A stretch of 47,465 nucleotides of DNA from a virus (Duplodnaviria; Heunggongvirae; Uroviricota; Caudoviricetes), in IMG/VR virus record IMGVR_UViG_3300034196_000151; one strand, written 5' to 3'. Numbering within the stretch: position 1 is the first letter of the stretch; each line of letters starts with the position of its first letter. The notes below the pieces were generated by a model. It was not told the DNA's origin. It saw only the letters and a program-made list of their open reading frames with translations, and did no database searches. A program made the translations under genes and the position numbers. This document shows positions 1,094 through 34,229 of the stretch, one piece after another.

Positions 1094-1333
1094 TTAATTC
1101 GACTGATAGGTAAAGGATTTTTTAAATTCAGACACAGTTGAATGGGAGCCTTTACGGTAGTTAGTGGAGTAATGAACAACATCACCTACAACATCAGTCA
1201 CCGTTGCTACAATAGGCGTACAATAGCGATCTACTACATCATCAAGCATAGCCCATACTTGCCCCTTCTTAGGTGCTGGCTGTTCAGGAACTGGAGTGCT
1301 GAATATTTTTTTGAGAACATTAATAAATTTCAT
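1094..1333 (-). CDS. Hypothetical protein (79 aa)
   Basis: ORF on the dominant strand; no recognised motif. Confidence 0.6.
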   Translation of the reverse strand: MKFINVLKKIFSTPVPEQPAPKKGQVWAMLDDVVDRYCTPIVATVTDVVGDVVHYSTNYRKGSHSTVSEFKKSFTYQSN

Positions 1334-1452
1334 GTAGACTCCTGATGAATAGAAAAGCAGTAGAGATCATCTAACAGGTAAGTATTTTACCAAAAACAAA
1401 GAAAAAAGGCAATAAAAAAATGGCCGAAGCCATTTTATATAACACTGAACAA

Positions 1453-1887
1453 TTAAGCAATATCCCAGTGTTCCACATAACCTTTACGAGTTGCAAAGTC
1501 AATGATAAAAATGAAAAAGGAGCTAAAAAGTCCTACCACAAGAGACATGATGATAGGGAAGTAATTTAAAGTAATGGCCGAAACATTGGCACCAAAATCA
1601 GCCGCCGACAAAGCAACAGTAATCGGTGTAGGTTTTTTATTGTTCTGGATAAATTGAACAAATTGCTCCAGAGACACTTTTTTTACAACCTGTTTTCCAT
1701 CAACCACAATGGTTCCTTCGAAAATCTCACCACCATTATAGCCATGATAGCTTTCAACATGGGTCAAAACACCACTGTAAGAAGCTGTCTGGAAAAGGTG
1801 CATATTCTCTTTATTATCCTGATGGACAAATAAAATAGCACAAATAAAGGAAATGAAAAGAACAAAAGAAATATTCGAAGTTTTCAT
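1453..1887 (-). CDS. Membrane protein with N- and C-terminal hydrophobic segments
   Basis: Two hydrophobic stretches; SD AAGGGG; own promoter and UUCG terminator. Confidence 0.65.
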   Translation of the reverse strand: MKTSNISFVLFISFICAILFVHQDNKENMHLFQTASYSGVLTHVESYHGYNGGEIFEGTIVVDGKQVVKKVSLEQFVQFIQNNKKPTPITVALSAADFGANVSAITLNYFPIIMSLVVGLFSSFFIFIIDFATRKGYVEHWDIA

Positions 1888-2551: not shown

Positions 2552-2647
2552 TCAAGCAGGCCAAAACCCATCATCAGACCAGTCTTCATCATTACAACCA
2601 AAAAAAGCTTCTGCGAAAAGAAGGCACAAAATAATAGATTTAATCAT
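2552..2647 (-). CDS. Possible 31-aa peptide (MIKSIILCLLFAEAFFGCNDEDWSDDGFWPA)
   Basis: Short ORF between two cassettes; hydrophobic N-half, acidic tail; weak SD. Confidence 0.25.
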   Translation of the reverse strand: MIKSIILCLLFAEAFFGCNDEDWSDDGFWPA

Positions 2648-2683
2648 ACGGATGATACTCAGTAGGTTGGGGTGATGTGGATA

Positions 2684-2910
2684 ATAAAAAAAGGCACCCT
2701 CATGGATGCCTTTCTTCTGATAGAAGTTACTCTGCGTCTTGATGACGATTACGACGCTTGTCACGCCATTGGCGGTCTTTTTTGTTGTGCTGAGCTTTCT
2801 CGCTGTCATGTTTCTTTGCACCGCTGAAACGTTCAACTGCGTCACCGAAAGAACCTTGCATGTTGTAACTCCTAACCTTGGGTTTGTGTTGTTTCGTTTT
2901 GATGTGTCTA
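2684..2910 (-). repeat. ~225-bp repeat unit 1 (promoter, leader, 44-aa ORF, terminator)
   Basis: Near-identical to 3583-3811 and 4170-4390 by direct comparison. Confidence 0.9.
2727..2861 (-). CDS. Basic microprotein copy 1 (44 aa, MQGSFGDAVERFSGAKKHDSEKAQHNKKDRQWRDKRRNRHQDAE)
   Basis: SD AGGAG; promoter TTTACT-17-TAGAAT; terminator; frame conserved across four copies. Confidence 0.85.
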   Translation of the reverse strand: MQGSFGDAVERFSGAKKHDSEKAQHNKKDRQWRDKRRNRHQDAE

Positions 2911-33410: not shown

Positions 33411-33438
33411 AAAAAAAAGCCCACCGAAGTGAGCTTTT
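33411..33438 (-). terminator. Terminator of the tRNA/ncRNA operon (C(UUCG)G loop)
   Basis: AAAAGCTCAC-TTCG-GTGGGCTTTT followed by a T-run. Confidence 0.85.
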
Positions 33439-33439
33439 C

Positions 33440-33645
33440 ATGAATGAGAATGACAAGGCGACGGATGAACATTGTCGATTAAAACCTTGCCCGCTTTCGC
33501 TAAACGGTGATATTCTGGCTTTTAAATTTCGCCATACCATTCTTACACTAGCAATCCCCGTTCTAAAATATCGCTAGCCGCAGATCCATTCTTTAGAGCA
33601 TTGAACCCGTCAGATCTGCTATCCAACTCACCGGCATTCAACTCA
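33440..33645 (-). ncRNA. Candidate structured ncRNA of unknown class (~200 nt)
   Basis: No ORF of 60 aa or more; helices CGGUGA/UCACCG, GCAGAUC/GAUCUGC, CUAGCGAU/AUUGCUAG, GGCAAGG/CCUUGUC, CGAC/GUCG; T-loop-like G-UUCAAUG-C; lies between tRNAs and the terminator. Confidence 0.55.
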
Positions 33646-33672
33646 GCTCAAGTTTAATTAATCATCATATAT

Positions 33673-33713
33673 AATTAGTAGTTAGTTCTGCATCGGTAGC
33701 TCACCTCTGGCAC
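33673..33713 (-). repeat. 41-bp repeat copy A, containing SD plus minigene ATG CAG AAC TAA
   Basis: GTGCCAGAGGTGAGC-12 variable nt-ACTAACTACTAATT. Confidence 0.85.
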
Positions 33714-33774
33714 TTCGTTTAATATGAACTAAGGGTTAGTCGGCATTCATTATACTAGATTCAATTATAGATTA

Positions 33775-33815
33775 AATTAGTAGTTAGTGCGGCATTATTG
33801 GCTCACCTCTGGCAC
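33775..33815 (-). repeat. 41-bp repeat copy B, containing SD plus minigene ATG CCG CAC TAA
   Basis: Identical 15-nt and 14-nt flanks to copy A; different 12-nt core. Confidence 0.85.
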
Positions 33816-33854: not shown

Positions 33855-33939
33855 TGGTGCCCGGTGCCAGACTCGAACTGGCATGACTTTCGCCGGAAGA
33901 TTTTAAGTCTTCTGTGTCTACCGATTTCACCAACCGGGC
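33855..33939 (-). tRNA. tRNA-Leu (UAA)
   Basis: GCCCGGT/ACCGGGC acceptor; anticodon loop CT-TAA-AA; long variable arm; GTTCGA; encoded CCA. Confidence 0.95.
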
Positions 33940-33945
33940 ATAATT

Positions 33946-34022
33946 TGGTCCGTGCGGCAGGACTTGAACCTGCGACCATCCGCTTAGAAGGCGGATGCTC
34001 TATCCAACTGAGCTACGCACGG
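33946..34022 (-). tRNA. tRNA-Arg (UCU)
   Basis: CCGTGCG/CGCACGG acceptor; AGCTCAGTTGGATAGAGC D arm; loop CT-TCT-AA; GGTTCAA; CCA. Confidence 0.95.
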
Positions 34023-34031
34023 GTGTTTGTT

Positions 34032-34163
34032 TTATTCAGCGTCTTGATGACGTTGACGACGATTATCACGCATTTGACGGCTGGCTTTGTTATCGCCACG
34101 TTTGGAGTTGTCTTTCTGCTTGCCTGCAAACTTTTCCATCATGTCGCGGTGAGAACCTTGCAT
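34032..34163 (-). CDS. Basic microprotein copy 4, diverged (43 aa, MQGSHRDMMEKFAGKQKDNSKRGDNKASRQMRDNRRQRHQDAE)
   Basis: Conserved MQGS start, RQxRDxRRxRHQDAE end and same leader; SD AAGGA; ends 9 nt before tRNA-Arg. Confidence 0.85.
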   Translation of the reverse strand: MQGSHRDMMEKFAGKQKDNSKRGDNKASRQMRDNRRQRHQDAE

Positions 34164-34200: not shown

Positions 34201-34229
34201 ATTATATGGAAAAGAGGGTTGGGTGTAAA
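34201..34229 (-). promoter_or_regulatory. Sigma70 promoter of the microprotein-tRNA-ncRNA operon
   Basis: TTTACA-17-TATAAT. Confidence 0.8.

What the first reader, a model, noticed from the sequence alone, without database searches (positions are those of the whole stretch)
33673..33815. Twin 41-bp repeats with fixed flanks and a variable 12-nt core, each forming an SD plus three-codon minigene
Seen on the transcribed strand: GUGCCAGAGGUGAGC-[CAAUAAUGCCGC or UACCGAUGCAGA]-ACUAACUACUAAUU. The cores differ at most positions, yet both keep AUG exactly 7 nt after GAGGUGA (complementary to the 16S anti-SD UCACCUC) and read M-P-H-stop or M-Q-N-stop. A partial third unit (AAUGCCGACUAAC, ~33735-33750) lies between them. 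Inference: conserved ribosome-loading sites, such as ribosome traps, stabilisers of the downstream RNA or codon/tRNA sensors. Alternatively the cores are variable guide sequences in a small-RNA scaffold.
Basis: partly seen in the sequence, partly recalled or inferred. Interest (0 to 1): 0.7.

Follow-up and report, generated by a model that had tools for sequence, protein, structure and literature searches.

The report
Ribosome-docking minigene repeat RNA
The two repeats are real: each is a very strong ribosome-binding site followed by a start codon and a stop codon two codons later, and they belong to a conserved, apparently undescribed family of non-coding RNAs on giant (up to 1.9 Mb) uncultured mobile elements that seem built to hold ribosomes rather than make a peptide.

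Summary
The repeats are real (35/41 identical; the cores differ at 6 of 12 positions, not most). I collected 45 distinct units from giant AT-rich contigs. All have AUG/GUG 7 nt after the SD, and 44 stop in frame by codon 4 (other frames: 5 and 2 of 45). Searches blind to start and stop found no family unit lacking them. The stop shifts between codons 2, 3 and 4 and uses all three stop codons; codon 3 varies freely. Selection therefore acts on ribosome engagement, not on a peptide. Units form arrays of 1-5 at about 100-118 nt, behind tRNAs or as stand-alone transcripts, and about half end directly at a terminator. Best reading: a ribosome-docking RNA that holds ribosomes by repeated re-initiation; purpose and expression are untested. 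Rejected: guide cores, a third unit, codon sensing, extended 16S pairing, a stable fold, ToxI mimicry. Not found in Rfam, GTDB, INPHARED, PLSDB or searchable papers. This scan noted the same family on other DNA before.

The parts
33775..33815 (-). Unit 1: 5' GUGCC, SD GAGGUGA (33809-33803), 7-nt spacer, minigene M-P-H-stop (33795-33784); belongs to the first-position class with spacer CAAUA
   Evidence: SD duplex with the 16S 3' end -11.7 kcal/mol, joint strongest SD-AUG in the window
33673..33713 (-). Unit 2: same SD (33707-33701), minigene M-Q-N-stop (33693-33682); spacer class UACCG
33714..33774 (-).
   Evidence: linker alignment, mean 74% AT, periods 98-118 nt in 18 of 20 neighbouring pairs; not hit by the unit profile
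34201..34229 (-). Sigma-70-type promoter (11/12 match) that probably drives the whole unit
   Evidence: consensus match only
34032..34163 (-). 43-aa basic microprotein (starts MQGS, ends RHQDAE) at the head of the transcript; four copies in the window
   Evidence: no known family
33946..34022 (-). tRNA-Arg(UCU)
33855..33939 (-). tRNA-Leu(UAA), directly upstream of the array
33441..33650 (-). Putative ~200-nt non-coding RNA after the array (optional cargo)
   Evidence: 96% identical over 216 nt in L307/L308; loose likeness to RNAs after arrays in L171 and L118; no Rfam match, folding z not significant
33414..33439 (-). Intrinsic terminator hairpin

Best explanation
Each repeat is a ribosome-docking cassette in a non-coding transcript: a strong Shine-Dalgarno, a fixed long spacer, a start codon and a stop within one to three codons, set in single-stranded AU-rich linkers at about one unit per 100 nt. 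SHOWN (sequence): the start, an early in-frame stop, SD strength and spacing are conserved while the peptide is not, and arrays are often the whole transcript. INFERRED from known minigene biochemistry: a host ribosome initiates, terminates almost at once and re-initiates on the same site without leaving, so each RNA holds several ribosomes. INFERRED, weakest step: the RNA acts mainly in trans as a ribosome rack or sink within the element's translation-control module (extra tRNAs, basic microprotein), and occupancy also shields the tRNA trailer and any cargo RNA from RNase E. I put the docking step at about 0.85-0.9 and the trans role at about 0.55 given docking.
For: Start-blind search: 15 of 16 GAGGTGARC sites in 906 kb have ATG 5 nt later, the 16th is an isolated site outside any array. 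A profile with start and stop masked finds no family unit without them. 45 units: 44 ATG + 1 GTG; first stop at codon 2 (2), 3 (11), 4 (31), 6 (1); TAA, TGA and TAG all occur; other frames stop by codon 4 in 5 and 2 of 45; shuffles give 24%. A codon-4 stop is kept in 16/17 haplotypes without an earlier stop and in 0/11 with one (Fisher p 6e-7); the flank tree needs 5-6 changes for codon-3 stops and 2 for codon-2 stops. Codon 3 takes 12 sense codons. SD median -11.7 against -5.8 kcal/mol for window genes; 10 of the 20 strongest SD-AUG sites in 290 kb of G001 are units. Stand-alone promoter-array-terminator transcripts without tRNA (L171, L024, L105, L118, L291). ORFs of 2-8 codons are translated repeatedly without ribosome release in vitro (PMC6495379).
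Against: No transcript, toeprint or ribosome-profiling data. Units are related by descent and the tree is poorly resolved (3 starred branches of 30), so p-values overstate independence. The 5' GUGCC and the invariant G at codon 2 position 3 (43/43 sense codons, against the element's A/U-ending codon bias) are not explained by docking alone. A ribosome sink would also compete with the element's own mRNAs, whose SDs are weaker. The host is unknown; E. coli 16S was used.
Confidence: 0.5

Rival explanations
1. Cis-acting RNA stabiliser only: ribosomes on the minigenes block 5'-end-dependent RNase E scanning and so protect the tRNA trailer and the cargo RNA behind it; no effect on other mRNAs.
For: About ten arrays, this one included, are followed by a further RNA or tRNA. 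Short uORFs with strong SDs impede RNase E scanning, and protection rises with ribosome persistence (PMC9943677); a two-codon mini-ORF acts in cis in axe-txe (PMC8708949).
Against: About twelve arrays end in a terminator within about 60 nt with nothing to protect; five tandem units (L171) seem more than a barrier needs.
Confidence: 0.25
2. Decoy substrate for ribosome-dependent mRNA-cutting toxins of the host (RelE family): the RNA offers many ribosomes with a favoured codon or a stop codon in the A site.
For: Codon 2 is CAG in 34, CCG 6, AAG 2, GAG 1, TAA 2: always A/C then G. RelE prefers CAG and codons ending in G and disfavours G before the cut (PMC2807027, PMC5224514). CAG is second codon in 1 of 380 ordinary genes of G001. 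Neighbouring tRNA copies fit an anti-defence setting.
Against: RelE specificity is loose in vivo and its favoured stop is UAG, here 1 of 45; a catalytic toxin would destroy the decoy. A weak 3-bp pairing with the 5' UGC could explain part of the codon pattern.
Confidence: 0.1
3. A protein-binding or small structured RNA motif (or DNA site) in which SD, AUG and stop are conserved for other reasons.
For: GUGCC and G3 of codon 2 are nucleotide-level constraints; every codon-2/3 haplotype can form a 3-bp clamp between the 5' UGC and a downstream GYR in one of two registers (8/8 against 3/12, p 0.001; 0.02 without early stops).
Against: No consensus fold and no cognate-flank covariation; frame-specific stops that move by whole codons, use three stop codons and decay behind an earlier stop are hard to explain without translation.
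Confidence: 0.07
4. Toxic-minigene or tRNA-sensor mechanism as in lambda bar: peptidyl-tRNA drop-off sequesters a specific tRNA.
For: Same length class as bar-type minigenes (PMC2490762); G001 encodes a Pth2-family hydrolase.
Against: Last sense codon takes 17 values and M-stop units carry no elongator codon; no match to the co-transcribed tRNAs except TTA in 2 of 45.
Confidence: 0.05
5. Mimic of the type III antitoxin RNA ToxI (as phage phiTE pseudo-ToxI).
For: The core shares three short blocks with a fetched E. coli ToxI repeat; single-comparison p 0.005-0.012 against shuffles.
Against: Pseudoknot stem 1 complete in 0/45, stem 2 complete in 0/45, the essential C27-U28 kept in 1/45; period about 100 nt rather than 36-nt head-to-tail; the p-value does not survive the many families one could have compared.
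Confidence: 0.03

Closest known systems
Toxic minigenes: lambda barI/barII and synthetic 2-8-codon minigenes (PMC2490762; reiterative translation, PMC6495379)
   Same: SD, start, one to three sense codons, stop; expected repeated initiation-termination on one site.
   Different: Here tandem arrays at a fixed period in a dedicated non-coding transcript, conserved across many genomes; last codon free, M-stop versions exist, so no specific tRNA is targeted.
Stabilising leader mini-ORFs: EHEC LEE mini-ORF (Lodato et al. 2012, seen only as a reference title in PMC9943677), axe-txe mg2 (PMC8708949), uORF obstacles to RNase E scanning (PMC9943677); STAB-SD of Bacillus (own knowledge)
   Same: Ribosome bound to a tiny ORF, peptide irrelevant, protection of RNA 3' of it.
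   Different: Those are single elements in the leader of a protein-coding mRNA; these are multiple, lie in tRNA trailers or stand alone, and often have nothing downstream but a terminator.
Microcin C precursor gene mccA (PMC6495379)
   Same: Very short ORF with a strong SD, translated about 70 times per binding in vitro.
   Different: mccA makes a conserved peptide with a modifying enzyme next door; here the peptide is not conserved and no such enzyme is adjacent.
ToxI and phiTE pseudo-ToxI (PMC3475682)
   Same: Short repeated RNA on a mobile element; three short shared sequence blocks.
   Different: No pseudoknot, no conserved toxin-contact bases, different period, no toxN behind the terminator.
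tRNA 3' external transcribed spacer sponges such as E. coli 3'ETS-leuZ (own knowledge, not tested)
   Same: Functional RNA released from the trailer of a tRNA-Leu(UAA) transcript.
   Different: That RNA pairs with sRNAs and has no SD-start-stop repeats; many arrays here have no tRNA.

Membership tests
Translated minigene (general) | SD complementary to the 16S 3' end at workable distance from a start codon | tested here: met
   median -11.7 kcal/mol; GAGGT-to-start 9 nt in all units against 4-7 in most genes
Translated minigene (general) | Start codon and in-frame stop within 8 codons, conserved in homologues | tested here: met
   45/45 start, 44/45 stop by codon 4, the other at codon 6
Translated minigene (general) | Transcribed and ribosome-bound | not testable with these tools
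   promoter and terminator consensus only
bar-type toxic minigene | Last sense codon fixed to a drop-off-prone or scarce tRNA | tested here: not met
   17 different last sense codons plus M-stop units
bar-type toxic minigene | Peptidyl-tRNA accumulation, Pth-dependent toxicity | not testable with these tools
   needs experiment
Stabilising leader mini-ORF / STAB-SD | Lies 5' of a coding region on the same transcript | tested here: not met
   a terminator separates arrays from the next gene; about half have a non-coding cargo only
Stabilising leader mini-ORF / STAB-SD | SD-dependent protection of downstream RNA | not testable with these tools
   needs half-life assay
ToxI / pseudo-ToxI | H-type pseudoknot (two stems) | tested here: not met
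   stem 1 at most 3/4 pairs, stem 2 at most 2/3 in all 45 units
ToxI / pseudo-ToxI | C27-U28 toxin contacts; 34-37-nt head-to-tail repeats | tested here: not met
   1/45 keeps CU; period 98-118 nt
Guide-RNA scaffold (CRISPR-like or bridge-like) | Freely variable core between fixed flanks | tested here: not met
   core holds an invariant start codon; two spacer types make 27/45; 3' flank not fixed
Any Rfam family | Match at gathering score | tested here: not met
   only tRNAs

The most novel reading that the evidence does not exclude
A new class of trans-acting non-coding RNA, a 'ribosome rack': a mobile element makes RNAs whose only job is to load and hold several host ribosomes in idle start-stop cycles, to throttle competing translation or to shield ribosomes from, or decoy, defence toxins. 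Earlier notes of this scan report a similar architecture in unrelated gut Clostridia (not tested here), which would make it a convergent and widespread design.
Probability: 0.3. Interest if true: 0.85.

Novelty: new variant of a known kind. Interest (0 to 1): 0.6.

Why it matters
Natural minigenes are known as single toxic or leader elements. A conserved, multi-copy array that forms its own transcript would be a natural RNA device for controlling ribosome availability, testable at once by toeprinting and reporter competition in E. coli, and usable as a synthetic ribosome sink or RNA stabiliser. It is also a marker for an uncharacterised group of giant elements (contigs up to 1.9 Mb) with a large translation toolkit. 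If the role is only cis-stabilisation, it is a modest extension of known mini-ORF biology.

Tried and rejected
Rfam at gathering and E<=10: only tRNAs. INPHARED and PLSDB blastn/tblastn of the region and the microprotein: tRNA or terminator matches only. GTDB pattern scan: five hits in unrelated organisms, none a family unit. T4, JC221, a Klebsiella T-even phage and two Pseudomonas megaplasmids (pMPPla107, pPL1) carry no unit. T4 rnaC/rnaD show no visible likeness. Pairing with 16S beyond the SD into helix 45: not better than shuffled spacers on average (mean p 0.3-0.4). ToxI mimicry: rejected; the ToxN search in G001-3 had no positive control and shows nothing. Scan for relatives of the downstream RNA hairpin: chance hits only. 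Nature of the carrier: no terminase (control rang) and no Gp23 (control silent) in G001-3; link to the Enterobacteriaceae pMEGA megaplasmids (10.1101/2025.09.30.679422) not shown. My first productive pattern required ATG and was not used as evidence; the counts rest on start-blind searches. Ten literature searches found no description of such arrays; two key papers (PMC212743, PMC3537511) were not held.

Full report
Observation. The two 41-bp repeats are at the stated coordinates, 102 nt apart and 35/41 identical. On the minus strand they lie behind a strong sigma-70-type promoter, a 43-aa microprotein, tRNA-Arg(UCU) and tRNA-Leu(UAA), and before a further 200 nt and a terminator. Each has GAGGUGA, 7 nt, AUG, two codons and UAA. 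They are the two strongest SD-AUG sites of the window. Three details need correcting: the cores differ at half their positions, the 3' flank is shared only by these two copies, and the 'third unit' is linker sequence whose AUG is lost in most homologues.

Family. Pattern scans of viral and metagenome contigs, whole-record searches and loci reached through the neighbouring microprotein gave 45 distinct units. All lie in AT-rich giant contigs; three IMG/VR records of 179-437 kb are identical at these loci to metagenome contigs of 0.44-1.86 Mb, and the microprotein occurs on contigs up to 1.9 Mb. None was found in GTDB genomes, INPHARED phages or PLSDB plasmids. Whether the carriers are giant phages or megaplasmids is open: no terminase was found in the three fragments held, a neighbouring protein has its best hits in Pseudomonas megaplasmids (48%) and Vibrio phages (42%), and promoters and terminators look gammaproteobacterial (inference).

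Test of the minigene reading. A search for the SD part alone found 16 sites in 906 kb; 15 have ATG five bases later and are the units. A profile with codons 1-4 masked found no unit without start and stop. In 45 units the start is ATG (44) or GTG (1); the first in-frame stop is codon 2 in 2, codon 3 in 11, codon 4 in 31 and codon 6 in 1; TAA, TGA and TAG all occur; the other frames stop by codon 4 in only 5 and 2 units, and shuffles give 24%. Where an earlier stop has arisen, the codon-4 stop has decayed (0/11 haplotypes against 16/17), with the downstream AU motif at about the same offset, so by substitution rather than deletion. A tree on flanks suggests several origins of early stops but is weakly resolved. 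Codon 3 takes 12 sense codons and the last sense codon 17. This is the pattern expected if initiation and quick termination are selected and the peptide is not.

Architecture. Arrays hold 1-5 units at 98-118 nt with 74% AT linkers. They follow tRNA-Leu(UAA) in many loci, but in L171, L024/L294, L105, L110, L118 and L291/L293 a promoter-like site runs straight into the array. About twelve arrays end at a terminator within about 60 nt; about ten carry a further small RNA or tRNA. The units have no stable fold. The GAGGT-to-start distance is always 9 nt, longer than the 4-7 nt of most ordinary genes of these elements.

Mechanism. ORFs of 2-8 codons can be translated repeatedly without the ribosome leaving the mRNA (PMC6495379), and ribosomes on short uORFs block RNase E scanning in proportion to SD strength and persistence (PMC9943677). 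I infer that each unit holds a ribosome in start-stop cycles and that the 100-nt period lets all units be occupied together. Because arrays are often the entire transcript, I favour a role in trans, as a ribosome rack or sink (overall 0.5), over cis-stabilisation of cargo alone (0.25). A decoy for RelE-type toxins (0.1) would explain why codon 2 always ends in G and is mostly CAG, which is rare in the element's genes; a weak 3-bp clamp with the 5' UGC could also explain part of this. tRNA sequestration as in lambda bar (0.05) is contradicted by the free last codon and by M-stop units. None of these steps has been observed; expression is not shown.

Leads rejected. Extended pairing with 16S helix 45 is not significant. 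A recalled likeness to ToxI is real at face value, but neither pseudoknot stem nor the essential toxin-contact bases are kept. The cores are not guides.

Known versus new. It works like a strong-SD minigene. It is not a member of the bar-type toxic, leader-stabiliser or ToxI families on the features that could be tested. No Rfam family and no paper in ten searches describes such arrays, though most subscription papers were not searchable. Earlier notes of this scan describe the same family in other genomes and a similar design in gut Clostridia; they gave the lead, are not independent evidence, and the Clostridial claim was not checked here. Verdict: real and conserved, a new variant of a known kind, interest 0.6.

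Noticed in passing
window 33441-33650 (-); L307 3435-3649; L171 about 1320-1500 (-); L118 about 2560-2760 (-): A ~200-nt putative RNA after some arrays, 96% conserved in an orthologous locus and sharing a 3' hairpin motif with two diverged versions; no Rfam match, folding not significant.
   Followed up: partly
L024, L105, L291, L293, L294, just after the last unit: A second, ~70-80-nt conserved hairpin RNA ending in a C-rich, anti-SD-like stretch (CCUCCACC) between array and terminator.
   Followed up: no
window 34163, 4348, 3760, 2861 (all -): Four copies of a 43-44-aa basic microprotein (MQGS...RHQDAE); six copies in G001; often at the head of tRNA transcripts; no known family.
   Followed up: partly
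L110 between its two units; downstream of the arrays in L024 and L294; G001:153491: Other SD-led short ORFs: a tandem pair of 8-codon acidic peptides between two units, and a conserved six-codon ORF (M-S-G/S-D-A-S) behind a strong SD.
   Followed up: no
G001 (290 kb) and metagenome contigs Ga0308158_10000001, Ga0247725_1000001: The carriers reach 1.5-1.9 Mb; G001 has 35 tRNA calls with many tRNA-Leu(UAA) copies, two with CUA anticodon, and a Pth2-family hydrolase, but no terminase was found. Giant phage or megaplasmid is unresolved.
   Followed up: partly
L105 about 1610-1630: A degenerate unit with a shortened SD that still reads start-stop (ATG TAA); not counted among the 45.
   Followed up: no
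window 33855-33939 versus the units: The 5' part of the unit resembles two short stretches of the adjacent tRNA-Leu (T-arm and 5' end); possible origin by partial duplication, no covariation seen by eye.
   Followed up: no
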